A stretch of 64,000 nt of DNA from Elusimicrobiota bacterium (GTDB lineage: Bacteria; Elusimicrobiota; Elusimicrobia; UBA1565; UBA9628). The notes below the pieces were generated by a model. The model worked only from the letters and a program-made list of their open reading frames with translations. It was not told the origin of the DNA and searched no databases. The position numbers and the translations under genes are program-made. Positions 9,855 through 58,329 of the stretch are shown here, in pieces (the first letter of the stretch is position 1; every line of letters starts with the position of its first letter). The DNA lies in the NCBI GenBank assembly GCA_026388095.1, contig JAPLKL010000051.1:73713-137712 (forward strand). Reading direction: 5' to 3'.

Positions 9855-10415
9855 ATGCCCACCCACGACGACACCCTGGCGGAAAAAGAATTCCTCCTCA
9901 TCCAGGAATTATCCCGCAAGCCCAACAGCACCCAGCGCGACCTCTCCCAGAACCTGGGGCTCTCCTTGGGAACGACGAACCTCCTCATCCGCAGGCTGGC
10001 GCGCAAGGGCATCATCAAGGTCACCCAGCTCGACTGGAAGCGCACCCAGTACCTGCTGACCCTCAAGGGCGCGGTGGAGAAGATGCGCAAGGCCTACCAC
10101 TACACCCGCTACACCTTGCGCATCTTCCGCCAGATCCAGGATAACATCAACACGGTCCTCACCCGGGAACACCGCGCCGGCCGCAGGGATTTCGTCCTCG
10201 TGGCCCGCGACGAGATATTGGAGCTCGTCCGAGAGACGGCGGCGGACCTGTCCCTGGCCGACGCGACCTTCACTTTCGTGCCCGCCTTCGACGAGGTCCC
10301 TGCGCGGGCGGACTTGGTCCTTACCGCGACCTTGGAGCCGGCTCCGAGACCCGTCAACGGCCGCCGCTACATGAGCCTGGTGGACTTCGACGACATAGAT
10401 TTCCGCATCCCTTGA
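9855..10415 (+). CDS. winged-HTH (MarR-like) transcriptional regulator
   Basis: N-terminal wHTH EKEFLLIQELSRKPNSTQRDLSQNLGLSLGTTNLLIRRLARKGII. Confidence 0.55.
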   Translation: MPTHDDTLAEKEFLLIQELSRKPNSTQRDLSQNLGLSLGTTNLLIRRLARKGIIKVTQLDWKRTQYLLTLKGAVEKMRKAYHYTRYTLRIFRQIQDNINTVLTREHRAGRRDFVLVARDEILELVRETAADLSLADATFTFVPAFDEVPARADLVLTATLEPAPRPVNGRRYMSLVDFDDIDFRIP

Positions 10416-20706: not shown

Positions 20707-21621
20707 ATGATCCGCATGCGCGCACCTCTCTTCTCGGTCGTCATCCCAGCCTACAACGCAGCCGCTTTCATTGAGAAGACCCTCGACTCTGTCCGGGCCC
20801 AGACCCTGCAGGACTATGAGATCATAGTCGTGGACGATGGCTCCCGCGACGACACGAAGGGGGTCGTCGACCGCTGGCTCGCCCGCCATAGCCAACCCGG
20901 CCGCTGTATCAGGCAGGAGAACAAGAAGATCGCCGGCGCCCGCAACACGGGGATCCGCGCCGCTGCCGCTGATCACATCGCCCTCCTCGACCACGACGAC
21001 CTCTGGTACCCGGAGAAGTTGGCGGCCGTGGCCGCGGCTTTTCGAGCGGACCCCGATACCGTCCTCGTATGCCACGACATGAACATCGTCCAGGACGGCC
21101 GCCGCCCAAGAACGGCGCGCATGGGTCCGGCGGCGCCGCGGATGTATGAGCGGCTGCTTTTTGAGGGCAACGCCCTGGCCCCTTCGACTTCCGTTTTCCG
21201 CAAGGACAAAGCCCTGGAGATCGGGGGCTTCCGCGAAAACCCGGAATTCGACACCTCGGAAGACTATGATTTCTGGATGCGCCTATCCCGCATCGGCAGT
21301 TTTCACTTCATCGACCAGGTCCTCACCGAATACCATGAGGTCGAGAACTCCGCCTCGAGCCGCGTAGAATACCACCTCGGCAACGCCGAGGCTGTCCTTC
21401 GTGACCATTTCGCCTCCTATTTCCGAGGAGACCCTGGAATCAGAGGCCGCTTTCTCATGCGGCGCCGCATGGCCACACTGTACCGGGCCTGGGTCGTCGC
21501 GCTGGGCGCGGCCGGAGCCTCGCGGGAGAAACAGCGGGAATATGTGCGCAGGATGATCGTGACATATCCTTTTTCCCCGAGGAATCTGGCGCGCCTCTGC
21601 CTCTGGCTCATCGGCCGCTGA
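20707..21621 (+). CDS. GT2 glycosyltransferase
   Basis: FSVVIPAYNAA ... VVDDGS ... DHDD; AAGGAG RBS. Confidence 0.8.
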   Translation: MIRMRAPLFSVVIPAYNAAAFIEKTLDSVRAQTLQDYEIIVVDDGSRDDTKGVVDRWLARHSQPGRCIRQENKKIAGARNTGIRAAAADHIALLDHDDLWYPEKLAAVAAAFRADPDTVLVCHDMNIVQDGRRPRTARMGPAAPRMYERLLFEGNALAPSTSVFRKDKALEIGGFRENPEFDTSEDYDFWMRLSRIGSFHFIDQVLTEYHEVENSASSRVEYHLGNAEAVLRDHFASYFRGDPGIRGRFLMRRRMATLYRAWVVALGAAGASREKQREYVRRMIVTYPFSPRNLARLCLWLIGR

Positions 21622-37782: not shown

Positions 37783-37859
37783 TGGTGGAATTCTGGCGCG
37801 GGCTTAGTTCGGGCGCTCTTGCCCCGCGCGGGGCAAGAGCGATTCGCCAGCTGGGGCTG

Positions 37860-38873
<1,014 letters not shown>

Positions 38874-42532: not shown

Positions 42533-43269
42533 TGGCCCTCCCAGATGTCCGGCAATTCGCACTTGGCGATGTTCCCACTCATCAAGATATCAAAACTGCT
42601 GTCGCCGCAATTGAACAACAGGTCGATGATGCTCATATATGGGACGAAGTCGCCGTGCAGTTGAGGATAAACGGGGTGCTTGTAGTCTTGGAAGTAGATC
42701 TTGATGCCCGCAGGGGAGAACTCGTCCTCCTTAGCGTAATCCTTGCCAAGGATCCCGAAGATGTACAGGTCCGCGTGCATCTTTCTGCACATATCTAGGA
42801 CGAGGCCGGATTTATGGCCCTCGAAGTGGAGATCCGAAGCCTTGTGGAAATGGGCCTTGATTCCCAGCTCCTTTAGGAACCACTTCAGCATTGCCTCGTT
42901 TAAATCCGTCAGATATTTCCAGTCGGTCCTATAAACCTCCTCGAAGTAATCAGCGTACCTGCTGAAGTAGGGGGCCTTCTTGTAGTTCAGATGGATCGAC
43001 TTCCAGTGCTTTCTCCGCCAATCTGATGAATTGTCAATCTCAATTTCACGTATGGGCTTCTCTCGATGTCCGGTTGATAGGACCGGGACTGTGAGCCATA
43101 TCGGGCCACTCGCAGTCTTGATCTGGTTCCTGCTGTTCCAGTCCCTTTTCAGGTATTGGACATCATCAAAACTGCAGAATGCATCGCTGAGGGCAATCTT
43201 GTGGAACAACCCGAGCCAAGGCAGATAGACCGGCTGATGGGCAGTAAGAATCATGTCAGTTCTTTCCAA
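42529..43269 (-). CDS. WbqC-family protein (start may be 43254)
   Basis: MILTAHQPVYLPWLGLFHKI N-terminal signature of the WbqC family. Confidence 0.6.
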   Translation of the reverse strand: MERTDMILTAHQPVYLPWLGLFHKIALSDAFCSFDDVQYLKRDWNSRNQIKTASGPIWLTVPVLSTGHREKPIREIEIDNSSDWRRKHWKSIHLNYKKAPYFSRYADYFEEVYRTDWKYLTDLNEAMLKWFLKELGIKAHFHKASDLHFEGHKSGLVLDMCRKMHADLYIFGILGKDYAKEDEFSPAGIKIYFQDYKHPVYPQLHGDFVPYMSIIDLLFNCGDSSFDILMSGNIAKCELPDIWEGQ

Positions 43270-44281
43270 TCGCCGCGATGACTCGCTCGACCGCCTCGTC
43301 CGGCAGTGACGGATAGATTGGCAAAGAGACCGTCATCCTGGTCAGTCCCAGAGCTTTAGGAAGCGAATCAGGCCGGCCAAGCAGTTCCCAGTCATTGATC
43401 GGCACGATGGCTCCGATGCCGACTTCCTCGAGGGATTTTAATGTCCTCTCAGGAGACTCGGTCTTCAGCACCGCTCGGTATCTGGCAGGAGACAGACGCT
43501 GGGGACCCCGAGATGGCACATCCAGCAGTTCCATCCCAGAACGCCTATACTTGTCGAAAATCCGGGCCCTTGCATCCAGAAATCCGGGGAGCCTGCTCAA
43601 CTGCACCCTTCCGATGGCCGCCTGCAAATCCGTCATCTGAAAATTGAACCGAGCCTTGGCATCTCGCCGGCAGTCGAATTGACGGTAGTCCCTGACGGCA
43701 TCGGCCAACGTGCGGGTCTTTGAAACAATCATCCCACCTTGTCCCCCGCTGGTGATGAGCTTGGTCGCATAGAATGAAAATATCCCGATTTCTCCGCGCA
43801 ATCCGACCGGCGCACCGTCCACGGATGCCCCTAAAGCCTGGGCGCAGTCTTCAATGACCGGAATTTTTACAACTGAGACATCCGCTGGCAAACCATACAT
43901 ATGCGCAATGATGGCGATGTCCGCGGTGATGGAGTTGATGGCTTTCACATCGATGTTGGGGGAACCATCGGCGATGTCTGCAATCACCTCATGCCCCCCC
44001 GCCATGGCCGTAGCATGCCGCAACGCCGAGCAGCAATAGGCGGGGAAGAGGATCTTCTTGCCCCGGGCATCCAGAACCCACAACGCCAAGAACAAAGCTG
44101 CGGTGCCGCTCGACAAGGCCACAGCATGCCCGGCCGGCAATCCCAGGAACGCGCAAAACTCATCCTCTAATGCCTCGACTTCCTTGCCCTGTGCCACCCA
44201 ACCGGACTCCAACACTCTGGCGGCAGCGCATGACTCTTCCGTGCCCAGGGTCGGCCTGTTATGAGGAATATCAATCATCAT
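43256..44281 (-). CDS. DegT/DnrJ/EryC1/StrS-family PLP-dependent sugar aminotransferase (PseC-like position)
   Basis: FSFYATKLITSGG with catalytic Lys. Confidence 0.85.
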   Translation of the reverse strand: MMIDIPHNRPTLGTEESCAAARVLESGWVAQGKEVEALEDEFCAFLGLPAGHAVALSSGTAALFLALWVLDARGKKILFPAYCCSALRHATAMAGGHEVIADIADGSPNIDVKAINSITADIAIIAHMYGLPADVSVVKIPVIEDCAQALGASVDGAPVGLRGEIGIFSFYATKLITSGGQGGMIVSKTRTLADAVRDYRQFDCRRDAKARFNFQMTDLQAAIGRVQLSRLPGFLDARARIFDKYRRSGMELLDVPSRGPQRLSPARYRAVLKTESPERTLKSLEEVGIGAIVPINDWELLGRPDSLPKALGLTRMTVSLPIYPSLPDEAVERVIAAIGKN

Positions 44282-44969
44282 GATGACTTGTGGGTTGCCC
44301 GGGATAGAATGTGATTTCTAGGTCGTCCGGAAATTCGGGACGCACTGCCGGCTCCGCACGGAGATTGAATGTGGTCTCGCCGCAGACCAGAAAGGCAGGA
44401 TGTCTTTTTTCGCATGCCCGCAGCAGCTTGATGACATCCCGCACTTTCATATCCGGGCGGAGCCTGTTGTCTGCTGGGGTCCTCCGGGGGCGGTAAGTGC
44501 CTCGGCCCGTCTGTTTCATCCCGGTGATGGGCCTACCGACGAATCGGTCAAGGATCGCCCTCATCAATCTGGCGGTAATCTCGATATCCCAAACTCTCAG
44601 GATGTCCGCTGTATAGCCGTCCTTCATACCGAACTTGGCTTTCACAACGATATCTCCGGCATCGATCTCATCCGATGCCAGCATCCCTGACACGGTGTAA
44701 TGCTCCAGTCCTTCCATGATTGTGTGGAAAATGGGCGCCCAACCCTTCCCGCTCGGAAGATCCGAGCTGTGGAACACGACGACGTTAGTGTTTTTGGTGA
44801 GGTTTGGGATCTTCTTCCGATAGCACCAGGGCACTATCAAGTCATACTCCGCCCGATTCTCCGGTAGAATATCCCCGATCGAAATGACCGCATCGCCCAG
44901 ATACCTCTTCAGCGTATCGCTAAAGGTGTATTCATCGAGCGTATTCAGCAATATAAAGACCTTTCTCAT
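44271..44969 (-). CDS. sugar N-formyltransferase (Fmt-like fold)
   Basis: HSSDLPSGKG matches the HxSLLPxxRG formyltransferase motif; ~232 aa; ATGA overlap with pseI-like gene. Confidence 0.7.
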   Translation of the reverse strand: MRKVFILLNTLDEYTFSDTLKRYLGDAVISIGDILPENRAEYDLIVPWCYRKKIPNLTKNTNVVVFHSSDLPSGKGWAPIFHTIMEGLEHYTVSGMLASDEIDAGDIVVKAKFGMKDGYTADILRVWDIEITARLMRAILDRFVGRPITGMKQTGRGTYRPRRTPADNRLRPDMKVRDVIKLLRACEKRHPAFLVCGETTFNLRAEPAVRPEFPDDLEITFYPGQPTSHHDD

Positions 44970-46012
44970 GCGCCGATGGGGCTCCCTTTTGCATAGACCC
45001 GTCTTGCACGTTTCCCAATCAGTGATTCGAAACGGTTCGGAAGAAGCCCCCTCCCTCCGGGAATCCGCCGCATCCCGATGTTCTCGTCGCAAAATGCCTC
45101 CCCCCCCGAGATATCCTTCAGGGCCACGACAATTCGTTGGAACTCTCGCTTATTGGCCCTTTCAGTTTTCGTGGGCTTGACGATGCCGTCTCCCAGCATC
45201 GAGAAGGAATCTCGGATCGCCTTGACCCACACGGCAAGGCCCTGCTGGTCCGCGGAGAACCAATGGTCGGGCCCGGGCAGGTCGTGGTCCAAGGTAAAAT
45301 GCTTCTCTAGGAAGCAGGCGCCCAGCGCGACGGCCAGGGAGGACGCCAGAGGACCTTGGGTGTGGTCAGAATAACCTATCAGGATCCTCGGGAAAGCCTT
45401 TGCCAGCGTCCGAATCCGTAGCAGGTTGGCGTCGCAAAGAGGCGTCGGATATTGTGATGTGCAAACCAAGAGTATCGTGGGACATCCCCTCATCGCCCCC
45501 ACCGCGTCCAAGGATTGCCGGACCTCCGCCATATCCGACATCCCGCAAGACAGGATGATAGGCAGGCCGGTTTTGGCATAGGTTTTGAGCAGCGGGATAT
45601 TCGTAAAATCGTCCGACCCGACCTTGATGGCTTTCACTCCGAGCCCCAGAAGAACACCGAGGTCAGAAGGATTCTGGGGTGTAGACAAGAACATGATGCC
45701 TGCCGCGTCGCATTCCCTCTTGAGCGCTTTCCATTGACCCACCGAGAATTCGTATCTCTTGAACATCTTTAACATGGACTCGGTGACCTTCCGGCCCTGA
45801 GAACGATAGGTAAACATCTGCCGAGGGTCGGCGACGAACTCCTCGGCCTTGAAGGTCTGGAACTTGATGGCATCGGCGCCCGCCTTCTTTGCTACCCAGA
45901 TCATTCGGAAGGCCTTTGCAAGCTCGCCGTTATGATTGATGCCGGCTTCGGCGACGACAAAGGGCATCCCATAATTGGCGATCATGAACCTGCCAATCTT
46001 GACGCCACTCAT
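44966..46012 (-). CDS. pseI: nonulosonic acid synthase (NeuB/PseI/LegI family)
   Basis: VAEAGINHNG, C-terminal SAF domain; contains a G8 homopolymer on the coding strand (45099-45106). Confidence 0.8.
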   Translation of the reverse strand: MSGVKIGRFMIANYGMPFVVAEAGINHNGELAKAFRMIWVAKKAGADAIKFQTFKAEEFVADPRQMFTYRSQGRKVTESMLKMFKRYEFSVGQWKALKRECDAAGIMFLSTPQNPSDLGVLLGLGVKAIKVGSDDFTNIPLLKTYAKTGLPIILSCGMSDMAEVRQSLDAVGAMRGCPTILLVCTSQYPTPLCDANLLRIRTLAKAFPRILIGYSDHTQGPLASSLAVALGACFLEKHFTLDHDLPGPDHWFSADQQGLAVWVKAIRDSFSMLGDGIVKPTKTERANKREFQRIVVALKDISGGEAFCDENIGMRRIPGGRGLLPNRFESLIGKRARRVYAKGSPIGA

Positions 46013-47025
46013 GACGGCAGCCCCTGGGCGCGCGTCCGCGCGAGAGACAGCAGTCGGTTGACCAACCGACGGGCACCTTCACCGTCCATGGACCCCCTCC
46101 CAATCCGATTTCTTTCCGATCTGCTCGTCTGGCTCTGCAAAAGTTGAAACCCGGTCAAAACGGACTTGGCTAAACCTGCATCTACGCAACGGCCCGCATA
46201 GAAGATGAACCCCGTCTTCTCCCAGCCCCGAACATTGTTGAGTTGGTTATCGGCCTCGGCGATAGCGATGGTCGGAAGCCCCACTCTGGCTAGTTCATAC
46301 AGAGTCTGTCCGCCGGATGAAATCGCCAGATCCGAGACAAGCATGAGTTCCCTCATCCCGTCCGCGTCAGGAGTGTGGTAGAACTCGGTGTTCGGGTCGC
46401 CAGCCCTCTCGATCTCGGATATGTTCTTGAACCACTTGCCGATGACGACTCTCTTGCGGGCATCCGGAGCGTGTTCCGCCAAGCATCCCAGGGTCATGGG
46501 CGTCAGACCGGCCGAATCCGACCCGCCAAAGGTGACCATGATGTTCCGGACCTGCTCCCTGGGGCGCAAGGGCGGGACTTCCCAGAACTCGTGGCGCAGG
46601 GGGAAATACCGGACTCCCAGCAGATACTCGACATCGCGGCGTTGCGGGTAATCCAGTCCCTCCGCTAGGATGGCCCCGTTGACCACCACGCCGGCGGGAT
46701 AGCTGAGACGCAGGCAATCATCAAGATAGACCGGTAGCCGCGCCATTCGCGAGACATCGGTATAGAAACCCGGGCCCGCCAGATAGGAATCAATCAAGGC
46801 GATATCCGCATCCTCAAGCGACTGCGCGAGTTGTTCCGGCCCATGCAGCCAATCCTGCACTCGGAAACCATCATCTTCCGCCATGCGGGACAACTCCTTA
46901 TCCCCATTGACTATCAGTTCCGGAGTCACTCCCTGCTCCGCGAAGGCCGCACGAATCGCCATGCAGCGACTGACATGCCCAAATCCGATGTCTCCTCCAC
47001 CCTCGGTGATGATGAGCACCTTCAT
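46009..47025 (-). CDS. pseG: PseG-like UDP-sugar hydrolase (MurG-like GT-B fold)
   Basis: MKVLIITEGGGDIGFGHVSRC (GxGHxxR), ~338 aa. Confidence 0.65.
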   Translation of the reverse strand: MKVLIITEGGGDIGFGHVSRCMAIRAAFAEQGVTPELIVNGDKELSRMAEDDGFRVQDWLHGPEQLAQSLEDADIALIDSYLAGPGFYTDVSRMARLPVYLDDCLRLSYPAGVVVNGAILAEGLDYPQRRDVEYLLGVRYFPLRHEFWEVPPLRPREQVRNIMVTFGGSDSAGLTPMTLGCLAEHAPDARKRVVIGKWFKNISEIERAGDPNTEFYHTPDADGMRELMLVSDLAISSGGQTLYELARVGLPTIAIAEADNQLNNVRGWEKTGFIFYAGRCVDAGLAKSVLTGFQLLQSQTSRSERNRIGRGSMDGEGARRLVNRLLSLARTRAQGLPS

Positions 47026-47027
47026 CT

Positions 47028-47858
47028 TTAGGGCCGGTGTCGCTTCAGGAGCCGAGCCGCCTCGGGGAAACCATACAGCTTAAGGAATCTTGCCGCCTCG
47101 CGGATTTCATGCCGGACGCTCTTTATGGCAATCTTTTGATAAGTCCCGGCGTTTATCGACGAAAGCCATGGATGCATCCCGAAAAGACGGACTATTTCCC
47201 GGGCGTCAAAGTATCTGTTTTTCGGATAAAGATAGTCATAGACCGCGCAAAGCAGAAGATAATCCTCCTCCGTATCCAGCGTAATCCTTATTCCCGGCCG
47301 GCGGAGCGTCTTGCCGGCCTTGACCACCCCTATTTTGAACCGTTCGGGGTGGCTTTCTTGCATATAGACCGTGACATGCTCTCTTTCACAATCCTTGCGT
47401 GCATTTCGGAAAGCGGTTTCCAACGCAACGGACGAACAAACTTCCACGTCCAACCCATGCGCAAAAAACTGATTATAGGTGTAATCGCATGAACCGCGTA
47501 TGTGCCGACTAATCACCGCGTCGATTATCTGCGGATCGATGCATGGACAATCCGAGGTTATCCGGACTATCACATCGAGCCCGTTTTCTTGGGCGGCCAA
47601 ATGGTATCTGCTCAGAACGTCATCCCGGCTGCCCCTGAAAAACCGCGCCCCTTCCTTTTGGGCTATCTTCACGATGGGATCATCTTCTTTCCCTTCAGTC
47701 GTTGCGATGATAATCGCATCCGCCTTCTTCGACTTCTTTGCCCGGCGAATGACCTGCTCCAATACAGTGATCCCGCTGCCGAACGGAAGGTCTTTGAGGA
47801 CTTTCCCCGGCAGCCTGGTGGAGGAAGTCCTTGCCTGTATGATAATTCCTGTCTTCAT
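47028..47858 (-). CDS. pseF: nonulosonate cytidylyltransferase (SpsF/PseF type)
   Basis: IIQARTSSTRLPGKVLK. Confidence 0.7.
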   Translation of the reverse strand: MKTGIIIQARTSSTRLPGKVLKDLPFGSGITVLEQVIRRAKKSKKADAIIIATTEGKEDDPIVKIAQKEGARFFRGSRDDVLSRYHLAAQENGLDVIVRITSDCPCIDPQIIDAVISRHIRGSCDYTYNQFFAHGLDVEVCSSVALETAFRNARKDCEREHVTVYMQESHPERFKIGVVKAGKTLRRPGIRITLDTEEDYLLLCAVYDYLYPKNRYFDAREIVRLFGMHPWLSSINAGTYQKIAIKSVRHEIREAARFLKLYGFPEAARLLKRHRP

Positions 47859-48071
47859 ATTGGTTGCTTGGTTGCAAGCCTTAGTATAGCGCTTTCAGTG
47901 GCGCCGGCCCTTGTTCGTGAGCACACTCATCCCTGATTCAGGGGCTCAATCCGGCGGCGTTTTTGTATTATAACCTTTGCTAGCCCCCCACAGGGGCTTG
48001 GGCAAGATGGTTGCCTGCGATAATTCCCTTCATATGTTTCGCGGGGTCCCGCTTCGTGGTCCTCAGCACAC

Positions 48072-50039: not shown

Positions 50040-51905
50040 ATGCAGAAAAGGCTTGAGCCATACCGGCGCAGAGCCATCGAGCTAGCCGACGCGGCGGCTT
50101 TCGCGGCGTCGTACTACCTGGCCTTCCTTCTGCGGTTTGACTTCCAGATGCCCCCCGAGGAATGGCCCGGGTTTCTCCACACGGTATGGCTTGTGGTAGC
50201 GCTGCGAATCGCCGCTTTATTGTTTTTCGGCGCATACCAGGGACTCTGGAGATACGCCAGCATCGCCGACCTCACCACGCTGCTGAAAGCGGTAGGGGCC
50301 AGCCAGATCGTCATCATGGCTGCGGTGCTCTTGCTGCAGCACGCGCATTTCCCGCGCTCGGTCCTCTTCATAGACCCCCTCCTCGCGCTCATCCTGGTCG
50401 GTCTCATCAGGTTCGGCATCCGAGTCACCCGCGAGTGGCGCTACCAAGGCGACACGGCGGAGTTGCCGCGCATGCTCATATTCGGGGCCGGCGACCTCGG
50501 AGAGAGCATCGTGCGCGGCATCCAGCGGAACAGACGAAGGACTCACCACCTCGTCGGTTTCATAGACGATGACAGCGCCAAATGGCATCACCGCATTCAT
50601 GGCGTGAACATACTCGGCGGCCGGCACGACCTGCCGCGCGTCATCGAGAAGCACCGGGTGGACGAGGTCGTTGTGGCCGTGAACCACTCGCGCGGCCAGC
50701 TCATCAAGGAACTCATGGAGATATGCAAAGACCATGGGAGCCGGAAGGTGCAGTTCAAGACAGTCCCCACCATCGAAGAGACCCTGCGGTCCGATTCGGC
50801 GCGCCATCGCGGCATCCGCAAGATAGAACTTTCGGACCTGCTGCAACGCAAGTCGGTGCACACGGACCTGAACGCGGTCGGAAGGATACTGAAGGGAAAG
50901 ACCGTGCTGGTGACAGGCGCGGGCGGGACCATCGGCGCGGAACTCTCCCGCCAGATACTGCATTTTAGGCCGGCGAAGCTGCTGCTTCTGGAGAATCACA
51001 ACACCGCCCTGTTCTACATCGACCGCGAGCTCGCGGCCGTGAACTCTTCGACCGTGCGCCTGCCCATCGTAGGCGACGTGGGCGACGAAGCGTTGTTGGA
51101 GAACCTGTTTTCAGCGCACAAACCGCAGGTGGTGTTCCATGCCGCGGCACATAAACACGTGCCGCTCATGGAATCGAACCCCCAAGAAGCCGTAAAAAAC
51201 AACACTCTCAATACACACCTGCTGGCCGATAAAGCGGTCAAGCACGGTGTGGAGCGCTTTCTGTACGTCTCCACGGACAAGGCGGTAAGACCGGCCAACG
51301 TGATGGGCGTTTCCAAGCGCCTGGGCGAGATGGTCATCCGCGCTTTCGCGGGAAGCCCCGCCACCAAATTCATGTCAGTGCGCTTCGGCAACGTGCTGGG
51401 CAGTTCCGGCAGCGCCATCAATATCTTCAAGGAACAGATCGAGCATGGCGGCCCAGTGACCGTCACGCACCCGGAAGTGACGCGGTACTTCATGACCACC
51501 GAGGAAGCGGTCCAGCTCATCTTGCAGGCCTGCGCCTTGGGCGGCGGTGGTGAGATATTCGTGCTGAACATGGGCGAACCCGTGAAGGTCGTGGAGGTCG
51601 CGCGCAACCTCATCCTCCTCTCAGGTCTAGAACCGGACCGCGACATCAAGATTGTGTTCACCGGCCTGCGCCCGGGGGAGAAACTCTACGAGGAACTCTT
51701 CCGCGACGGCGACATCCGCAGGGACACCGGCCATCCCGACATCTTCGCCGCCCTCCCCGAGGAAGCGGACCTGGCGATCATACGCGGGAAAATCAAGGAA
51801 CTCGGAGAACTCTGCTGCCGGCCCGACACGGCTCCGCTTTTGGAGGCACTAAAACAGTTCGTGCCCTCTTACAAATCCGCCCCAGTTTCGCGTAGCGCGA
51901 AATGA
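50040..51905 (+). CDS. membrane-anchored UDP-GlcNAc 4,6-dehydratase (WbpM/PglF/CapD family)
   Basis: four N-terminal TM helices, VLVTGAGGTIG, YVSTDKAVRPANVMGVSKRLGE. Confidence 0.85.
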   Translation: MQKRLEPYRRRAIELADAAAFAASYYLAFLLRFDFQMPPEEWPGFLHTVWLVVALRIAALLFFGAYQGLWRYASIADLTTLLKAVGASQIVIMAAVLLLQHAHFPRSVLFIDPLLALILVGLIRFGIRVTREWRYQGDTAELPRMLIFGAGDLGESIVRGIQRNRRRTHHLVGFIDDDSAKWHHRIHGVNILGGRHDLPRVIEKHRVDEVVVAVNHSRGQLIKELMEICKDHGSRKVQFKTVPTIEETLRSDSARHRGIRKIELSDLLQRKSVHTDLNAVGRILKGKTVLVTGAGGTIGAELSRQILHFRPAKLLLLENHNTALFYIDRELAAVNSSTVRLPIVGDVGDEALLENLFSAHKPQVVFHAAAHKHVPLMESNPQEAVKNNTLNTHLLADKAVKHGVERFLYVSTDKAVRPANVMGVSKRLGEMVIRAFAGSPATKFMSVRFGNVLGSSGSAINIFKEQIEHGGPVTVTHPEVTRYFMTTEEAVQLILQACALGGGGEIFVLNMGEPVKVVEVARNLILLSGLEPDRDIKIVFTGLRPGEKLYEELFRDGDIRRDTGHPDIFAALPEEADLAIIRGKIKELGELCCRPDTAPLLEALKQFVPSYKSAPVSRSAK

Positions 51906-53224
51906 CCGGGCTGAAAAAGCTCATGCCTGCGTGCTCTCCTTTTTCCCTGTTCGTCGTCATGGTGGTATGGGGCTTGAATCTCGGTTACCCCATGCACCAC
52001 CTACAGGGTGTGCGCTGGACATTGTTCGGTTATTTTCTGCCCGCTTACTACATCCTCACCGTGCTGCCGATGGCGGGAGCCGCGGCATTGGCGCTGGCAT
52101 TCAAGCGTCAGTGGACCAAATGGGAGTTGTTTTGGTGGCTATTGCCCTTGGTTTGCTTGCCCGGGATTCTGCGCAGCGGCGATCCCTTGTGGTCCACTCG
52201 CCAATGCTTCAGCTGGATAGTGCGCGGGCTCATACCCGGCGGCGTGATATTCGCAGTCGCGTATCGAAGAAGAGCGGATCGCCTGCTTCTGTATTGGATC
52301 TACCCTGTGATCATCGCCGCCTCTTTGCTGGGATTGTCAGAAATTTTTTTGGACTACAACCCGCTCGGGACGGATGCCACCGTCCCTATAACTCAAACAG
52401 CTCAGCCTGACAACCCCTTTTATCGGCCTGATGAAGCACTTCGCGTGTCTCGCAGCCCCCTTGGCACCCAAGGCAACAGGATCCCCTATGCTTCCACTCT
52501 CGTCGCCTTCTTGCCGCTAGGACTCTGGCTTTTGAGATATAAGAGGCATTTCTTCTGGGCGCACCTCTGCGCCATAGCCCTGCTATCGTCCATCCTGCTC
52601 TTGGCCCAAGTGCGCTCGGCTTGGGTGGGAATGCTGGCGGCCATGATATTGATGCATGCCTTGGGCTTGACTCGAAATCCGAGGGGAACTATCAAGATCA
52701 TGGCCGGCATATTGCTATGTCTGGGCATTCTTATGGCTTGGCCAAGGACTCAGCATCTGCTTTTGGTTAGGCTCCAGTCCTTTCAACTCTCGGAAGAAAG
52801 CATACGGCAGCGTCTCGCGGTCCTCCAGACGGCCAAGGTCTTGCAGGATCGTTGGCTGCTGGGCGTAGGATTCGGACAGTTCCCCACGGCATGCAAACCT
52901 TATTTCCACAGCACGCTGCCTTGGAGGGGAACCCCTGACAACCAATATCTGCGATGGGCCATTGAAAATGGGATATTGAGCTTCGGGCTGCTGTTGGCTT
53001 TCTTTGCCGGATTGGTCCGCGCCGGATGGCAGAAGATCAAGTTGATGGATGATCCCCAAGAGGCGGATTTCTATAAATCTTTATTGGTCGGCTGGGCGAG
53101 CATCGCCGTCACATTCTTGTTCTTCGACGGATTCTACTGGGGCGCGTGCAACATGACCTTCTGGTGCTTCCTCGGCCTGTTCGCAACCTGCCTGAAGCCC
53201 CCGGCTGAAGGTGTCCCCGCTTGA
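51902..53224 (+). CDS. Wzy_C-domain protein (WaaL-type ligase or O-oligosaccharyltransferase candidate)
   Basis: TPDNQYLRWAIENGILS motif, polytopic. Confidence 0.65.
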   Translation: MTGLKKLMPACSPFSLFVVMVVWGLNLGYPMHHLQGVRWTLFGYFLPAYYILTVLPMAGAAALALAFKRQWTKWELFWWLLPLVCLPGILRSGDPLWSTRQCFSWIVRGLIPGGVIFAVAYRRRADRLLLYWIYPVIIAASLLGLSEIFLDYNPLGTDATVPITQTAQPDNPFYRPDEALRVSRSPLGTQGNRIPYASTLVAFLPLGLWLLRYKRHFFWAHLCAIALLSSILLLAQVRSAWVGMLAAMILMHALGLTRNPRGTIKIMAGILLCLGILMAWPRTQHLLLVRLQSFQLSEESIRQRLAVLQTAKVLQDRWLLGVGFGQFPTACKPYFHSTLPWRGTPDNQYLRWAIENGILSFGLLLAFFAGLVRAGWQKIKLMDDPQEADFYKSLLVGWASIAVTFLFFDGFYWGACNMTFWCFLGLFATCLKPPAEGVPA

Positions 53225-55491
53225 TTCCGAAGAAGATCGCCTTCGTCCATGACTGGCTGACCGGGATGCGCGGCGGCGAGAAGGTGCTGGAGGCCGCCTG
53301 CGAGCTGTTCCCGGACGCCGAGATCTACACCTTGATCCACCGGCCGGACCGGATCTCCGGGCTCATCAATTCCAAAGGCGTCCACGTCTCCTGGCTGAAC
53401 TCCTTGCCGGGCGTGCATCGCTATTACCGCTACCTCCTGCCCTTGATGCCTTCGGCCATCCGAGGCTTCGACCTGGGCGATTGCGACCTGGTCTTGTCCT
53501 TCAACCATTGCGTGGCCAAGGGCGTGCCCATGACCCGGCGCCCCGGGAAGAGGCGGCCGCTGCATATCTGCTATTGCCACACGCCGATGCGCTACGTCTA
53601 TGACGAATTCCACGCCTATTTCGCGGACGGCTCCCGGGCCTGGCTGAAGAGGGGCGCCGGCTGGCTGAGGCCGCATCTCATGCGCTGGGACAAGAAGACC
53701 AGCCGCGGCGTCGATCTCTTCATCGCCAACAGCGAGAACGTCCGCCAGCGCATCCAGAAGGCCTACACCCGGGATTCCGCCGTCATCCATCCGCCCGTGG
53801 ACACCGGCTTCTTCACCCCCTCACCTCCGGGCGGCGGCGCGGGTCCGCGGCCCTACTACCTGAGCGCGGGCGCCTTGGTGCCCTACAAACGCGTGGACCT
53901 GGCCATTGCCGCTTGCCGAAGGCTGAACGCTCCGCTCAAGATCGTCGGGGTCGGGACCGAGGAGCAGCGGCTAAGACGACTGGCCGCGGGGGCGCCGGTG
54001 GAGTTCCTGGGGTGGCAAAGCGGCGAGGCCTTGCGGGAGCTCTACCGGGATTGCGAGGCCCTGCTTTTCCCGCAGAATGAGGATTTCGGCATCACCCCGG
54101 TGGAAGCCATGGCCTGCGGCAGGCCCGTGATCGCCTACAAGAAAGGCGGCGCTTTGGAGACCGTGATAGAAGGCGTGACCGGGACTCTTTTCGACGCGCA
54201 GACTCCCAAGGCCCTGGCCGACGCCATGCAGCGCGCGCGACAGACGCGCTTTGAACCAGCCGCCATACGCTCCCATGCCCTCCAGTTCGACGTCAGGCAT
54301 TTCAAATCCCGTCTTGCCGGATTCGTGGAGCAAGCCTGGGAGAAACACGCTCAGGACCAGGCGGCGGTTGAGAAAAAGGTCCGGGTGCTGCAAGTCCTCG
54401 AATGCGGCGGGCCCGGCGGCACCGGCAACCAGGTCGCCGCCATCTGCAACGGACTGGATGCAGACCGGTTCGAGACGGTCTTGGTCTATTCCGTGCGGCC
54501 CGGCAACGAGCCGGAGCAGTACCGCGCCACGGCCGCCGGAGCGCGGTCCGCCTATCATGTGCCGGAGATGGTCCGCGAGATCTCACCCTGGAATGATGCT
54601 CGCGCGTTCCTAAGGCTGATACGCATCCTACGCAAGGAACGCCCGGACGTGGTCCATGCCCATTCCTCGAAAGCCGGGGTCCTGGCGCGCTTGGCGGCCT
54701 GGCTGTGCCGGGTGCCCAGGATATACTATTCCCCCCACGGCTACTCCTTCCTGCAGACCGACAGGTCGTCTTTGGCCCGCCTCTATTACTGGCTGCTCGA
54801 GTTCTTTGTCTCCGCCATCGGCGAGATCGTGGCCGTCTCACCGGGGGAAGCGCAGCTGGCCCGGAAGCTCTCCTGGGGAAAGCCGGTCCACACGGTCTGC
54901 GACCCATATCTGGGCCCCGCCGAGCCGCCTGCCCTCCGGGCCCATGAAGGCCTGGTGGTGGGCGCCTGCGGCCGCCTGACCGAGGCCCGCAATCCGGAAG
55001 CCTTCATCCGTCTGGCCGCCGAGCTCTGCCGGCGCGGGCCGGCTGTGCGCTGCGTCTGGATCGGCTCGGGGGAGCTGGAGGCGACGGCGCGCGGTCTCGT
55101 CCAGGGACTCGGCCTCGCGGCTCGTTTCGAGTTCACCGGCTGGCTCAAGCCCGGGGAGGTGCTGGAACGGCTGCGCGGGCTGGATGTCTTCGTCCACTAC
55201 TCCCGCTGGGAGGGGCTGCCCAATGCCGTCTTGGAAGCCATGGCGCTGGGCTTGCCGGCCGTGGTCTCGGACGTGCCCGGCAACCGGGACGCGGTCCAGG
55301 CGGGAGTGACGGGCTTCTTGGCCAAGGACGAGGCCGGGCTCCGGGACGCGGTGTCCCGGCTCCTCAAGGACCCGCAGTTGCGGCGCTGCCTCGGGCAAGC
55401 GGGCCGGGAGCGCATCCGCCGGGAATTCACGCCCGCCAAGGCCATCGCGCTGCTCCAAGGGTTGTACAGGCAGGATCCGACTCCAGGGTGA
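53221..55491 (+). CDS. fused tandem GT4 glycosyltransferase (two GT-B modules)
   Basis: two successive E(x7)E-type C-terminal motifs (FGITPVEAMACGRPVIA and EGLPNAVLEAMALGLPAVVS). Confidence 0.75.
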   Translation: MIPKKIAFVHDWLTGMRGGEKVLEAACELFPDAEIYTLIHRPDRISGLINSKGVHVSWLNSLPGVHRYYRYLLPLMPSAIRGFDLGDCDLVLSFNHCVAKGVPMTRRPGKRRPLHICYCHTPMRYVYDEFHAYFADGSRAWLKRGAGWLRPHLMRWDKKTSRGVDLFIANSENVRQRIQKAYTRDSAVIHPPVDTGFFTPSPPGGGAGPRPYYLSAGALVPYKRVDLAIAACRRLNAPLKIVGVGTEEQRLRRLAAGAPVEFLGWQSGEALRELYRDCEALLFPQNEDFGITPVEAMACGRPVIAYKKGGALETVIEGVTGTLFDAQTPKALADAMQRARQTRFEPAAIRSHALQFDVRHFKSRLAGFVEQAWEKHAQDQAAVEKKVRVLQVLECGGPGGTGNQVAAICNGLDADRFETVLVYSVRPGNEPEQYRATAAGARSAYHVPEMVREISPWNDARAFLRLIRILRKERPDVVHAHSSKAGVLARLAAWLCRVPRIYYSPHGYSFLQTDRSSLARLYYWLLEFFVSAIGEIVAVSPGEAQLARKLSWGKPVHTVCDPYLGPAEPPALRAHEGLVVGACGRLTEARNPEAFIRLAAELCRRGPAVRCVWIGSGELEATARGLVQGLGLAARFEFTGWLKPGEVLERLRGLDVFVHYSRWEGLPNAVLEAMALGLPAVVSDVPGNRDAVQAGVTGFLAKDEAGLRDAVSRLLKDPQLRRCLGQAGRERIRREFTPAKAIALLQGLYRQDPTPG
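55436..55475 (+). repeat. direct repeat copy A (3' end of GT4 gene)
   Basis: about 36/40 nt identical to 56805..56843; both encode AKAIALLQGLY. Confidence 0.6.
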
Positions 55492-56220
55492 TTGGGAAGC
55501 AGCCGTCAACGGCGCTGGAACGACTCGGCGCCTTGAGGCGACGGGCCTCTACGGCAGCACCTGCCGCGGGTTCAGGGAAGTCGGATATAATCTTTTAGCC
55601 GCTATTAACTGCCACAAATGCAGTCAACATCGCTTTTCATATACCATGAATGCAAATCTTATTACTTCGTAAAAAGTCCTGACCTCATGGTGCTGGACGC
55701 ATAAAGCGCCCGCTCGACTCGCAGAGTCGCGGGGAACCGACGGCCGAAGGCCGGCGGCAAGACCATTTCCACGGGTCCTGCCGGCGGTGTGGACATGTAC
55801 GATTCCGGGACACCGCCAAATTTTAGGCACATGGCATAAAACTGTGAATTCAAACGGCATCCTCGGCTGACTTATCCACCAACTTAGCCCAGGGACGAGT
55901 CGGTGGATAAGTCCGGAAATAGGAGCCCGTCGGGACGATGGCCGAGCGCGAGGATCTCAAACGAACGCGCGCCCGCAGGGCGCGCGGAACCGCCCCCGAA
56001 GGGGGCGGAGCCGTTGCCATTGTTGCGTAACGGGGCTTTTGCGGGCTTCGTGCCCGCGACTCCGACACGCTACAGCGCGTCGGAGTGCCAGGACGGATCA
56101 GCGGCCTTTCACAAAATTCTGTCAGGAGCCAAATTTTATTTGAGCAAAATATGAGCCGCGCATGAGTTCCCCCGGAGGTCCCTGCCTTATACTATTAGTA
56201 TGAAGACGGGAAGAGGGATT

Positions 56221-56658
56221 ATGAAAAAGGTGAATTTGAAGATCATGCTCGAACTCGCGGCCGCGTTTGTTTTCCTGGGTGTCCCGTCGCAAGCCGGCGA
56301 AAACTCAGTCATGACCTCGCAACTGGCGATAGCGGCAAAAGCGGGCGCATTCAGCACGCTGACCCCGGAATCGACTCTCGGCCGGTTCGAAGGCATCGAC
56401 TCTCCCCAAAAGGGCTGGCTCTCCAAGGCGCCCTCCGCGATCGCCCCGGTGTCTAAAACGCCGGAAGCCCTCCCGGCAGCGGGCGCGAACCTGAAGACCA
56501 AGGCCGCGGAGCCCGTGAAGTCGGTGGAGCCGCGCAAGCCGCGGGTCTCCAGGCTGCAGGAGCCGGGCGAAGCGCTGGGCGGCGGAGCGGCGAAGCGGAT
56601 CCGGGATGAGGCCCGGATGCTGGCGGAACAGGCGACAGAGATCGGAAGCGCGCAGTAA
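56221..56658 (+). CDS. small secreted low-complexity protein (signal peptide)
   Basis: MKKVNLKIMLELAAAFVFLGVPSQA signal peptide; AGAGGGA RBS; lies inside the repeat-flanked insert. Confidence 0.4.
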   Translation: MKKVNLKIMLELAAAFVFLGVPSQAGENSVMTSQLAIAAKAGAFSTLTPESTLGRFEGIDSPQKGWLSKAPSAIAPVSKTPEALPAAGANLKTKAAEPVKSVEPRKPRVSRLQEPGEALGGGAAKRIRDEARMLAEQATEIGSAQ

Positions 56659-56804
56659 GCCGATGACGGGCATGAGTCTATGAAGCGATTCCAGACCACC
56701 TGACAAAGCGCAGCCGCCGCGTCGAAGGCCCAGGGGACATGCCGCCCTGGGTTTTCCCATCCAGACTCATCAAGTCGCCTCTTCAGGGTGGAAATCCCTG
56801 GAGC

Positions 56805-56843
56805 AAGGCCATCGCCCTGCTCCAAGGGTTGTATAAGCAAAAT
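56805..56843 (+). repeat. direct repeat copy B (diverged duplicate of GT4 3' end, SKAIALLQGLYKQN*)
   Basis: see copy A; brackets a ~1.33 kb insert. Confidence 0.6.
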
Positions 56844-56859
56844 TGATATAATCGCGCGG

Positions 56860-58329
56860 ATGGCGATTCCAGCGCCGCACGCTGTGGCTCCGCCCCCCGA
56901 TCGCCGGCCGGCAAGCTCGATCCGCTTGCCGCTGTGGCTGCGCCACGGGTCGCGCACGGCCCTCCACCTGGCCCTGGACGCGGCGGCCGTGGCCGCCGCT
57001 TACCGCTTGGCGTATCTCTGGCGCTTCCGATCGGAGAGATGGGTCGCAGCTTTCCCCATCCCCGGGCGCGTGCCGGGCTGGGAGCTTTACGGCCAGATGC
57101 TCTACGCCGTAGTCCCGTTGTGGCTCATGATCTTCTGGTACTCCGCGCGGCTCTACGACGCCCCCTGGATCAGCGGCGCTGACCGATTCCTCAAGATCGT
57201 CAAGGGCTGCCTCCTGGCCACCGTGGCCACCATGGCGGCCACCTACGTCTACTCGCGGCTGGAGTACTCGCGGATGATGCTCGCCATGGTCCTGCCGCTC
57301 TCCGCGGGCCTGGTCTGCCTGAGCCAGGCCCTGGTGCTGTGGGTGGACGGCTGGGTCTCCCGGCGCGAGGCCGCTTTGCCCGCGCTCCTGGTGGGGAAGG
57401 GGGCCGTGGCGAAGATCGTCAAGGAGCGCATCCGCGACCGCCACCCGGGAGCCGAAATCCTGGAGCTTCCCGAACTGCCCCCAAAAGCCGAGCTGGAACG
57501 CCTCCTGGCCGGGCGCCCCTTCTACGAGCTCATCTTGTTCAATTCCTCCTTGGCCCACGGCCGCATCCTCGAGGCGGCCGAGCTCTGCGACGCGCACGGG
57601 ATCGCCTTCAAGATGCTCCCGGACCTCCTGGAGCTGCGCCTGGGCGAAGTGCAGATGGACCACAGCCTGGGGCTTCCGGCCTACCGCATCCAGCACGCCT
57701 CCCTGACCGCGGCCAACTTCGCGGCCAAGCGCGCCTTCGACCTGTTCTTCTGTCTCCTGGTCTTCTTGGTCGCGGGCCTGCCCTGGCTGCTGGCGGCCCT
57801 GCTCATCCGCTTGGATTCCAAGGGACCGGCGCTCTACAAGCAGAAGCGCTACGGCTACAAGAGCCGGATCTTCTACGCCTACAAGTTCCGCACCATGGTC
57901 CAGGACGCGGAATCAAGGGTCGCCGCGGTCAAGGCCGCCCATGGTCCGCAAGGCGCCTTCTTCAAGGCCAAGGACGACCCGCGCATCACGCTCGTCGGCA
58001 AGTGGCTGCGGCGCTTCTCCTTGGACGAGTTCCCGCAGTTCATCAACGTGCTCAAAGGCGAGATGAGCGTGGTCGGCCCCCGGCCTTTGGCCTTGACCAC
58101 GGGCGAGGTGGAGGCGCTTCAGCGGGACTTCGGCGAGACCGCGAAGAAGCGCATGAACGCCCTGCCCGGCATCACCGGGCTTTGGCAGGTCTCGGGGCGT
58201 TCCGACGTGGCCAGCGACCAGCGCTTCGCCCTGGACATGTTCTACATCGAGCATTGGTCTTTGGGCCTGGACCTGGAGATCATCCTCAAGACGATCCCGG
58301 CCATGATCATGGCCAAGGGGGCCTATTGA
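56860..58329 (+). CDS. WbaP/PglC-type polyprenyl glycosylphosphotransferase (sugar transferase)
   Basis: C-terminal PGITGLWQVSGR and MSVVGPRP motifs; N-terminal TM block. Confidence 0.8.
   Translation: MAIPAPHAVAPPPDRRPASSIRLPLWLRHGSRTALHLALDAAAVAAAYRLAYLWRFRSERWVAAFPIPGRVPGWELYGQMLYAVVPLWLMIFWYSARLYDAPWISGADRFLKIVKGCLLATVATMAATYVYSRLEYSRMMLAMVLPLSAGLVCLSQALVLWVDGWVSRREAALPALLVGKGAVAKIVKERIRDRHPGAEILELPELPPKAELERLLAGRPFYELILFNSSLAHGRILEAAELCDAHGIAFKMLPDLLELRLGEVQMDHSLGLPAYRIQHASLTAANFAAKRAFDLFFCLLVFLVAGLPWLLAALLIRLDSKGPALYKQKRYGYKSRIFYAYKFRTMVQDAESRVAAVKAAHGPQGAFFKAKDDPRITLVGKWLRRFSLDEFPQFINVLKGEMSVVGPRPLALTTGEVEALQRDFGETAKKRMNALPGITGLWQVSGRSDVASDQRFALDMFYIEHWSLGLDLEIILKTIPAMIMAKGAY

What the first reader, a model, noticed from the sequence alone, without database searches (positions are those of the whole stretch)
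55476..56843. About 1.3-kb insertion bracketed by a diverged 38-bp duplication of the upstream GT4 gene's 3' end
55436-55475 (end of the double-GT4 CDS, AKAIALLQGLYRQD) is repeated at 56805-56843 (SKAIALLQGLYKQN*, ~36/40 nt identical), directly in front of wbaP. The intervening DNA has lower coding density, several stable hairpins and one small secreted-protein gene (56221-56658), and no recombinase. This is the footprint of an element that integrated into the gene's 3' end and supplied a replacement terminus, then lost its integrase. It separates wbaP from the upstream operon, which may have altered its expression.
Basis: seen in the sequence. Interest (0 to 1): 0.6.

Follow-up and report, generated by a model that had tools for sequence, protein, structure and literature searches.

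The report
Accessory DNA wedged before wbaP
In a sugar-coat gene cluster of an uncultured Elusimicrobia bacterium, about 1.3 kb of strain-specific DNA sits between a glycosyltransferase gene and wbaP, leaving a 40-base relic of the glycosyltransferase's old end; this is ordinary genome plasticity at a local insertion hotspot, not a new kind of element.

Summary
The repeat is real. Bases 55437-55476 (end of the double-GT4 gene) recur at 56804-56843 with 35/40 identity, far above chance. Copy B reads ...KAIALLQGLYKQN*, and its TGA overlaps a conserved TGATATAAT box 7 nt before the wbaP ATG. In two related lineages the GT4x2 homologue abuts wbaP directly, and in the one with DNA in hand its stop lies inside that box. 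Copy B is therefore the displaced ancestral terminus.

The DNA between the copies is absent from all seven related loci with sequence. It holds a roughly 0.6-kb non-coding block, the most hairpin-dense in the window, and a genuine small secreted-protein gene with 19 distant relatives. One copy, 90% identical where aligned, lies on another contig of the same MAG.

The integrase story is not shown. No recombinase or recognisable remnant was found. Sixteen bases after copy A are shared with the closest relative, which carries hipBA at the same junction and has no repeat. Other relatives carry IS4, a candidate defence ATPase or hicA there.

The best reading is a clade-wide insertion hotspot, where a recombination inside the gene's last 40 bp left a relic. 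wbaP keeps its own promoter. Interest is low to moderate.

The parts
53221..55491 (+). Double-GT4 glycosyltransferase gene (756 aa, two GT4 modules), ending ...AKAIALLQGLYRQDPTPG*
   Evidence: Pfam Glycos_transf_1/Glyco_transf_4 matched in two stretches. Identical protein P0123 in NCBI and Logan.
55437..55476 (+). Repeat copy A: the functional 3' coding end of the GT4x2 gene
   Evidence: 34/40 identical to the orthologous end in L084.
55487..55502 (+). GGTGATTGGGAAGCAG: tail shared (14/16) with L084, where it encodes the last codons VIGK* of the orthologue. It marks the true left limit of window-specific DNA (about 55503).
   Evidence: A shorter YGGGAAGYRG also follows the L087 orthologue.
55584..55592 (+). 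GATATAATC, a -10-like box. It is the only other exact copy in the window of the 9-mer found in the wbaP promoter, and is a possible promoter of the cargo.
   Evidence: two exact matches in 64 kb, both in this region. Promoter function is inferred only.
55593..56190 (.). Hairpin-dense non-coding block. GC-rich stems include 55710-55734, 55783-55817, 55869-55913, 55966-55986, 55985-56013 and 56059-56086.
   Evidence: Fold z = -6.8 (+) and -8.3 (-). Most structured 700-nt block in the window. Inverted repeats. No Rfam family at E <= 1. No coding signature.
56189..56201 (.). Perfect palindrome ATACTA-T-TAGTAT just upstream of the ribosome-binding site of the small gene; possibly an operator
   Evidence: Read from the sequence and inverted repeat I4. 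Function is inferred only.
56221..56658 (+). Small secreted-protein gene (145 aa): Sec-type signal peptide, disordered middle, invariant motif PRxKRVSRLQEPGEA(M/L)GGG, C-terminal helix
   Evidence: Gene-like GC by codon position. 19 relatives by exhaustive HMMER. Alignment A1 gives the invariant residues. Paralogue P0002 lies in the same MAG. AlphaFold2 pLDDT 57, with helices at 6-19 and 122-143. No Pfam, NCBIfam, PHROGs or PADLOC family.
56729..56755 (+). Terminator-like hairpin CCCAGGG-N9-CCCTGGG followed by TTTT, downstream of the small gene
   Evidence: Inverted repeat I6 and the sequence. Not flagged by the consensus scan (loop of 9 nt, only 4 T).
56793..56830 (.). Junction hairpin. DNA just upstream of copy B (AATCCCTGGAG) plus its first 6 nt pairs with the inside of copy B. 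CCCTGGAG (56796-56803) is the inverted complement of CTCCAGGG (55481-55488) at the left junction.
   Evidence: Inverted repeat I2, 17 nt and 82% complementary, and the sequence.
56804..56846 (+). Repeat copy B plus relic stop codon: the displaced ancestral GT4x2 terminus (...KAIALLQGLYKQN*). TGA at 56844-56846 overlaps the wbaP -10 box.
   Evidence: 37/40 identical to the L084 orthologous gene end. A comparable degenerate relic precedes wbaP in L081/L082.
56844..56852 (+). Extended -10 box TGATATAAT of wbaP, 7 nt before the ATG
   Evidence: Conserved at the same place in L083, L081/82, L084, L005, L090 and L001. Homology of the window to L005 and L083 starts here.
56860..58329 (+). wbaP-type initiating sugar-phosphate transferase (489 aa)
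   Evidence: Pfam Bac_transf, E = 1.5e-61. Identical protein P0003 in NCBI.

Best explanation
The 40-bp repeat marks a real insertion site at the GT4x2|wbaP junction of an Elusimicrobia polysaccharide locus.

Ancestrally the GT4x2 gene ran straight into wbaP, and its stop codon overlapped wbaP's extended -10 box (TGATATAAT). A recombination event inside the last 40 bp of GT4x2 then inserted foreign DNA. This was a Campbell-type insertion-duplication; the enzyme is unknown. The event left the old terminus (copy B) stranded in front of wbaP. The functional gene (copy A) acquired a new short tail.

In this clade the junction is a recurrent landing site for accessory genes. In this genome the cargo is now a 0.6-kb hairpin-rich non-coding leader or sRNA region plus a small secreted-protein gene. 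That gene has its own ribosome-binding site and a terminator-like hairpin.

wbaP is still served by its own promoter, probably as a leaderless mRNA. The main regulatory consequence is therefore loss of read-through from the upstream genes.

Shown: the repeat, the relic status of copy B, absence of the cargo from relatives, the hotspot, the reality of the small gene and its second copy.

Inferred: the recombination mechanism, the promoters, and leaderless transcription.
For: - Repeat significance.
- Abutting ancestral layout. In L083 (WbaP 84% identical) the GT4x2 homologue ends ...PAKLI*, with its TAA inside TATAAT and 8 nt before the wbaP ATG. P0172 and P0005 appear to share one 3207-nt contig, and on the P0008 contig the upstream gene overlaps wbaP. 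In L005 and L001 other genes abut wbaP in the same way.
- Copy B is 37/40 identical to the true gene end of the closest relative, L084.
- The segment is absent from L001, L002, L005, L081-L084 and L087. It is also absent from the plasmid and phage collections.
- Hotspot cargo in relatives: hipBA in L084; an IS4 transposase right after GT4x2 in L087; an AAA_14/DUF4143 ATPase matching PADLOC candidate PDC-S01 before wbaP in L081; hicA in L002.
- A degenerate GT4-end relic also precedes wbaP in L081 (score 23; 5 of 500 shuffles reach it).
- The small gene is real and has a 90%-identical (over aligned parts) copy on another contig of the same MAG.
- The left junction is confirmed by an independent Logan assembly.
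Against: - The enzyme and the donor molecule are unknown.
- The repeats differ at 5 of 40 positions.
- The 26 nt after copy A are not all cargo, because 16 of them are shared with L084. The simple picture of an insert exactly bracketed by the repeat is therefore untidy.
- L084 has no copy B, so either it lost the relic or the events were independent.
- The right junction rests on a single MAG assembly.
- The second copy of the cargo gene could not be fetched, so the ends of any mobile unit are undefined.
- The L081 relic is only moderately significant, and it has not been proven that L081 and L087 come from one genome.
Confidence: 0.6

Rival explanations
1. A site-specific integrative element with a tyrosine or serine recombinase integrated into an attB in the GT4x2 3' end, bringing a replacement terminus. 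It then lost its integrase. What remains is a CIME-like remnant flanked by attL and attR.
For: - A 40-bp direct repeat sits at the 3' end of a gene, with a replaced terminus.
- The cargo is unrelated to the locus, has lower GC, and has a second copy in the same MAG.
- Mobile or accessory cargo occupies the same junction in relatives.
- An 8-nt inverted pair, CTCCAGGG / CCCTGGAG, lies at the inner junctions (sequence).
Against: - No integrase or recognisable remnant was found in the ORFs and the ten longest six-frame fragments of the non-coding block. None was found in the genes tested on either side of the segment either.
- No relative has an integrase at this site. The mobile gene seen there is a DDE IS4 transposase.
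- L084 shares the left-junction tail but has different cargo and no attR-like repeat.
- The segment has no match in the phage or plasmid collections, and the cargo protein family has no relative in viral contigs.
Confidence: 0.22
2. Locus-shuffling scar. Copy B is the remnant of a previous GT4x2 allele, left when homologous or illegitimate recombination between strains replaced one side of the polysaccharide locus. For example, wbaP and its upstream 40 nt may have been imported from a donor with the abutting layout. On this model the 1.3 kb was already present or came with the other side, and nothing 'integrated' as an element.
For: - Gene content upstream of wbaP differs in every relative: GT2, Wzy, Polysacc_synt_2, ATPase and GT4x2. 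Wzy is inverted in L084.
- Copy B is closer to the L084 gene end (37/40) than to copy A (35/40).
- Microhomology-like motifs and a fold-back hairpin lie at the right junction.
Against: - Identity to L084 is similar on both sides of the junction (GT4x2 89.6%, wbaP 91.4% nt). No recombination breakpoint is visible in divergence.
- The model does not explain the second copy of the cargo gene elsewhere in the MAG.
Confidence: 0.15
3. Assembly artefact: a chimeric MAG contig that joins a strain carrying cargo to a strain with the abutting layout.
For: - The sequence is from a metagenome-assembled genome.
- The independent Logan contig stops inside the segment, at window 55744, with a SNP near its end. 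This shows population heterogeneity there.
Against: - The left junction and 270 nt beyond copy A are reproduced at 99.7% by the Logan assembly.
- A chimeric join would need a long shared k-mer at 56803/56804, and none exists elsewhere.
- A comparable relic precedes wbaP in L081/L082, assembled independently by JGI and ENA.
Confidence: 0.03

Closest known systems
Cis-mobilizable elements (CIMEs) and decayed integrative elements at the 3' ends of genes. CIMEs are defined as elements that have lost their integration and transfer genes but retain attL and attR (PMC6323972). The ICESt1/ICESt3-CIME case at the 3' end of fda in Streptococcus thermophilus is cited from my own knowledge.
   Same: Direct repeats duplicate the 3' end of a protein-coding gene. 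The gene keeps a functional end. There is no recombinase inside, and the cargo is unrelated to the locus.
   Different: No cognate integrase-bearing element is known for this site. The repeats are imperfect (35/40). The element is very small (1.3 kb). The closest relative has different cargo without a repeat. attL/attR function is untested.
Gene remnants and mosaic junctions in O-antigen, capsule and EPS loci (general knowledge of polysaccharide-locus evolution)
   Same: A short relic of a locus glycosyltransferase sits in an intergenic region. Gene content next to a conserved initiating transferase is highly variable. IS elements occur in the locus in relatives.
   Different: Here the relic duplicates the end of a gene that is still intact next door. 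The intervening genes are not sugar-pathway genes.
Chromosomal integration hotspots or 'islets' between conserved genes that collect toxin-antitoxin, defence and IS cargo (general knowledge)
   Same: The same junction carries hipBA, hicA, IS4, a PADLOC candidate defence ATPase or an orphan gene in different relatives.
   Different: The hotspot lies inside a polysaccharide operon, directly on a promoter and stop-codon overlap. It is not next to a tRNA gene or at a typical island site.
Campbell-type insertion-duplication (single crossover of a circular molecule carrying a short homologous stretch)
   Same: It predicts exactly a direct duplication of the target stretch flanking the inserted DNA, with the downstream copy attached to the original downstream sequence.
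   Different: A 40-bp homology is near the lower limit for RecA-dependent recombination. No donor circle is known.

Membership tests
CIME / decayed site-specific integrative element | Flanked by direct repeats (attL/attR) that include the target gene's 3' end | tested here: met
   55437-55476 vs 56804-56843 is 35/40 identical. Copy A ends the gene, and copy B is attached to the original downstream DNA.
CIME / decayed site-specific integrative element | The repeats are att sites of a known recombinase; related integrase-bearing elements use the same site | tested here: not met
   None of the related loci with DNA (L001, L002, L005, L081-L084, L086/87) has an integrase at the junction. The cargo there is hipBA, hicA, IS4 (a DDE transposase) or an ATPase. 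Sampling is limited.
CIME / decayed site-specific integrative element | No integration or transfer genes inside the element | tested here: met
   Pfam, NCBIfam and PHROGs searches of the ORFs and a Pfam search of ten six-frame fragments found no recombinase.
CIME / decayed site-specific integrative element | Excision or mobilisation in cis by a helper element | not testable with these tools
   This needs read-level evidence for circular or empty junctions, or an experiment.
IS element / MITE | Terminal inverted repeats, a short (2-14 bp) target-site duplication, and a transposase or multiple genomic copies | tested here: not met
   Only an 8-nt inverted pair is present, offset from the repeat. 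The duplication is 40 bp. There is no transposase, and no other copy in the 64-kb window.
Polysaccharide-locus recombination scar (gene remnant) | A relic of a locus gene lies in an intergenic region next to a conserved gene, with variable neighbouring gene content among relatives | tested here: met
   Copy B is 37/40 identical to the orthologous gene end in L084. The genes upstream of wbaP differ in every relative.
Polysaccharide-locus recombination scar (gene remnant) | A divergence breakpoint at the scar (different donor on the two sides) | tested here: not met
   Nucleotide identity to L084 is 89.6% on the GT4x2 side and 91.4% on the wbaP side.
Any Rfam RNA family (for the hairpin block) | Covariance-model match | tested here: not met
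   No match at E <= 1 in 55000-57500, and none at gathering score in the whole window. No tRNA or tmRNA was found.

The most novel reading that the evidence does not exclude
The 0.6-kb hairpin-dense block and the small secreted-protein gene may form a previously undescribed small non-autonomous cassette. The gene belongs to a narrow, uncharacterised family with the invariant motif KRVSRLQEPGEAMGGG. The cassette has at least two diverged copies in one Elusimicrobia genome. It might move by a hairpin- or repeat-dependent mechanism, or carry a new structured regulatory RNA for this protein family.
Probability: 0.1. Interest if true: 0.5.

Novelty: new member of a known kind. Interest (0 to 1): 0.27.

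Why it matters
The finding matters only modestly. It documents, in an uncultured phylum, how a surface-polysaccharide operon tolerates accessory DNA exactly where a stop codon overlaps a promoter. It also shows that this junction repeatedly collects toxin-antitoxin, candidate defence, IS and orphan genes.

It gives a clean example for annotating gene relics and leaderless-type promoters in Elusimicrobia. It also flags a small conserved secreted-protein family and an unusually structured non-coding region that nobody has described. It does not reveal a new mechanism.

Tried and rejected
- Rfam (E <= 1 locally, gathering score window-wide) and ARAGORN found no known RNA.
- Exact look-ups of the window's small protein, wbaP and P0002 returned nothing on record. 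The second copy's DNA (NTY77_15140) therefore could not be obtained.
- A metagenome scan with the small protein found nothing. A metagenome scan with the wbaP promoter pattern found only two relevant loci: L090, with just 72 nt of upstream sequence, and L093, which is the same contig as L082.
- A viral-contig scan with the protein family found nothing. blastn of the segment against plasmids and phages found nothing.
- The segment has no other copy in the window or in the 97 fetched loci.
- I looked for homology between the window's cargo and L084's cargo beyond the 16-nt tail. It was not significant on the left (148 of 300 shuffles reach the score) and marginal on the right (13 of 300).
- An apparent match of 55667-55687 to the DNA after the L087 gene end is chance (108 of 200 shuffles).
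- The idea that within-genome copies in L087/L081 are more alike than across lineages was not borne out (27/41 vs 28/42).
- AlphaFold2 of the small protein gave a mostly disordered, low-confidence model (pLDDT 57), so no fold search was run.
- A weak Glyco_trans_4_4 hit on the - strand ORF 55624-55860 (E = 0.006, below the cutoff) was not accepted.
Full report
**Observation.** The window comes from an Elusimicrobia metagenome-assembled genome. Its proteins match NCBI entries with locus tags NTY77_ on a 151-kb contig.

- ORF 53221-55491 encodes a 756-aa protein with two GT4 glycosyltransferase modules.
- ORF 56860-58329 encodes a Bac_transf (WbaP-type) initiating transferase.
- The neighbours are Wzy-like, Polysacc_synt_2, DegT and GT4 genes.

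- 55437-55472 and 56804-56839 are 33/36 identical. Over 40 nt (55437-55476 vs 56804-56843) they are 35/40 identical.
- The 29-nt core occurs exactly twice in 64 kb, with none expected.
- The ungapped score is 27, against at most 13 in shuffles.
- Copy B reads SKAIALLQGLYKQN* in frame.

**Copy B and the wbaP promoter.** The relic stop TGA (56844-56846) is the first three bases of TGATATAAT (56844-56852). This is an extended -10 box that ends 7 nt before the wbaP ATG. The same box sits 7-10 nt before the wbaP ATG in six related loci: L083, L081/L082, L084, L005, L090 and L001.

DNA homology between the window and L005 or L083 begins at about this point. I infer that wbaP has its own promoter and is probably transcribed as a leaderless mRNA. 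This has not been shown.

Upstream of the last roughly 6 nt of copy B, relatives show no conservation. Copy B is therefore not retained because it is promoter sequence.

**The ancestral layout.** L083 carries the closest WbaP with DNA in hand (84% aa identity, 85% nt). There a GT4x2 homologue ends ...ALYEATPAKLI*, with its TAA inside the TATAAT box and 8 nt before the wbaP ATG. The same C-terminus appears in P0161.

- Partial GT4x2 P0172 and WbaP P0005 (81% identical) both report a 3207-nt NCBI contig. This leaves at most about 195 nt for spacers. That they share one contig is an inference.
- On the P0008 contig (WbaP 81% identical) the upstream gene overlaps wbaP by 4 nt.
- In L005, L001 and the P0010 contigs, other genes (GT2, Wzy, Polysacc_synt_2) abut wbaP in the same way.

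Copy B fused to the -10 box therefore has the architecture of an intact gene end in relatives. It is 37/40 identical to the true GT4x2 end of the closest relative, L084. Copy A plus a new tail (DPTPG*) now closes the gene.

**What lies between the copies.** GC drops to 0.50-0.59, against 0.63-0.76 in the flanks. The interval has two parts.

*(i) 55593-56190, non-coding.*
- It has no codon-position GC signature.
- Pfam, NCBIfam and PHROGs searches of its ORFs, and a Pfam search of ten six-frame fragments, found no protein family.
- It is packed with GC-rich hairpins.
- It folds far better than shuffles on both strands (z = -6.8 and -8.3).
- It is the most structured 700-nt block in the window.
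- No Rfam family matches.
- A GATATAATC box lies at 55584-55592. It is the only other exact copy in the window of the 9-mer in the wbaP promoter, and it could drive this block.
- Two hairpins have A.C mismatches on the + strand that would be G.U pairs on the - strand. A - strand terminator-like site lies at 55986-55966. The transcribed strand therefore remains open.

*(ii) 56221-56658, a real gene.*
- GC by codon position is 0.64/0.51/0.79, like the neighbouring genes.
- It has a Sec-type signal peptide.
- An exhaustive HMMER search found 19 relatives at 30-56% identity.
- These share the signal peptide and an invariant C-terminal motif, PRxKRVSRLQEPGEA(M/L)GGG (alignment A1).
- The AlphaFold2 model is mostly disordered (pLDDT 57).
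- No Pfam, NCBIfam, PHROGs or PADLOC family matches.
- A terminator-like hairpin with TTTT follows at 56729-56755.

**Distribution of the segment.**
- It is absent from every related locus fetched.
- It has no other copy in the window.
- It has no match in the plasmid or phage collections, and the protein family has no relative in viral contigs.
- The small protein has one close homologue, P0002 (NTY77_15140). P0002 is 90% identical over the aligned parts, with a 21-residue in-frame deletion. It lies on a different 57-kb contig of the same MAG.
- No close WbaP or GT4x2 homologue was listed on a contig of that length. The second copy therefore seems to sit in another context. I could not obtain its DNA.

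**The junction is a hotspot.** L084 is the closest relative (GT4x2 89.6% nt, wbaP 91.4% nt). It has 1.8 kb between the two genes, carrying hipA, an HTH antitoxin gene and a small ORF on the opposite strand.

- Its gene end reads ...AKAIALLQGLYRQKVIGK*.
- The 16 nt encoding VIGK* (GGTGATCGGGAAGTAG) recur at window 55487-55502 (14/16 identical). These are the only such matches in the window and in all fetched loci.
- Window-specific DNA therefore starts near 55503, not 55476.
- L084 has no copy B.

Other relatives also carry cargo at this junction.
- L087 (GT4x2 76% identical) has an IS4 transposase right after the gene.
- L081/L082, from the same sample, have an AAA_14/DUF4143 ATPase before wbaP. 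It matches PADLOC candidate defence system PDC-S01 (E = 3e-51).
- That ATPase is followed by a degenerate GT4-end relic...KAAAAKGCIRQN*, fused to the same -10 box. The relic's similarity to the L087 gene end is reached by 5 of 500 shuffles.
- L002 has a hicA toxin gene directly before wbaP.

**Mechanism.** The geometry is a direct duplication of the last 40 bp of the target gene. The downstream copy stays attached to the original downstream DNA. This is what a Campbell-type single crossover produces, whether catalysed by a site-specific recombinase or by homologous recombination on a short stretch.

Several findings argue against a specific integrase model.
- No recombinase or remnant was found.
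- No integrase was found at this site in any relative.
- The repeats are imperfect.
- The left tail is shared with L084, whose cargo differs.
- L084 lacks a repeat.

Several findings argue against a pure locus-shuffling scar.
- Divergence from L084 is equal on both sides of the junction.
- A second copy of the cargo gene exists elsewhere in the MAG.

The copy A/copy B divergence (5/40) is of the same order as the window/L084 divergence. The duplication is therefore roughly as old as, or younger than, that split. This dating is an inference.

An 8-nt inverted pair (CTCCAGGG at 55481-88, CCCTGGAG at 56796-803) and a fold-back hairpin at the right junction could reflect microhomology or template switching. 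They could equally be recombinase sites. I cannot tell which.

An assembly artefact is unlikely. An independent Logan assembly reproduces copy A and the next 270 nt at 99.7% identity. A similar relic exists in independently assembled relatives. The right junction itself has not been independently confirmed.

**Verdict.** The effect on wbaP is probably limited to loss of read-through from upstream.

The closest known kinds are CIME-like remnants (definition in PMC6323972), gene relics in polysaccharide loci, and chromosomal integration hotspots. This is a new member of a known kind, of low to moderate interest.

The least ordinary parts are the exceptionally structured 0.6-kb non-coding block and the small conserved secreted-protein family. 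Neither can be taken further without the second copy and the contexts of the family members.

Noticed in passing
window 56844-56860; L083 1390-1409; L084 ~7999-8020; L005 ~9984-10003; L001 ~9923-9943: wbaP carries a conserved extended -10 box (TGATATAAT) 7-10 nt before its ATG across this Elusimicrobia clade. In some genomes the stop codon of the upstream gene lies inside the box. This suggests a leaderless wbaP mRNA with an internal operon promoter.
   Followed up: partly
L084 6259-7796 (- strand): A hipA/HTH (hipB-like) toxin-antitoxin pair, plus a small ORF, occupies the GT4x2|wbaP junction in the closest relative (JGI Ga0373622_0026693).
   Followed up: yes
L002 9767-9951: A HicA-family toxin gene (PF07927, E = 2e-7) lies directly upstream of wbaP. 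No hicB partner was looked for.
   Followed up: partly
L081 227-1381; L087 3426-4607 and 6964-8295: An AAA_14/DUF4143 ATPase matching PADLOC candidate defence system PDC-S01 (E = 3e-51) sits before wbaP. A second such ATPase and an IS4 transposase flank the GT4x2 gene in the same sample.
   Followed up: partly
L084 2525-3853 vs window 51902-53224: The Wzy-like polymerase gene is inverted in L084 relative to the window and only 68% identical in nucleotides. The flanking genes are 77-90% identical.
   Followed up: no
window 55744 (end of L085, Logan SRR20698638_5419): An independent assembly of the same organism breaks inside the hairpin block, with one SNP 12 nt before the end. This hints at population heterogeneity or hairpin-related coverage loss there.
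   Followed up: no
window 55869-55913 and 56059-56086; 55986-55966 (- strand): Two long hairpins have A.C mismatches on the + strand that become G.U pairs on the - strand. A terminator-like hairpin with tail TTCGTTTGAG lies on the - strand. A - strand small RNA is possible.
   Followed up: no
window 55624-55860 (- strand): This ORF gives a sub-threshold Glyco_trans_4_4 match (E = 0.006, 17 bits against a cutoff of 29.7). It may be a decayed GT4 fragment or noise.
   Followed up: partly
window 52621-52720, 37801-37900, 21501-21600: These are other 100-nt windows with unusually stable predicted folds for their GC content (z = -4.1, -3.5, -3.4). The first lies inside the Wzy-like gene.
   Followed up: no
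window ~43000-48000 (from the L085 gene table): Upstream genes include NeuB, CTP_transf_3, DegT and WbqC-like proteins. The locus therefore probably makes a nonulosonic-acid-containing polysaccharide.
   Followed up: no
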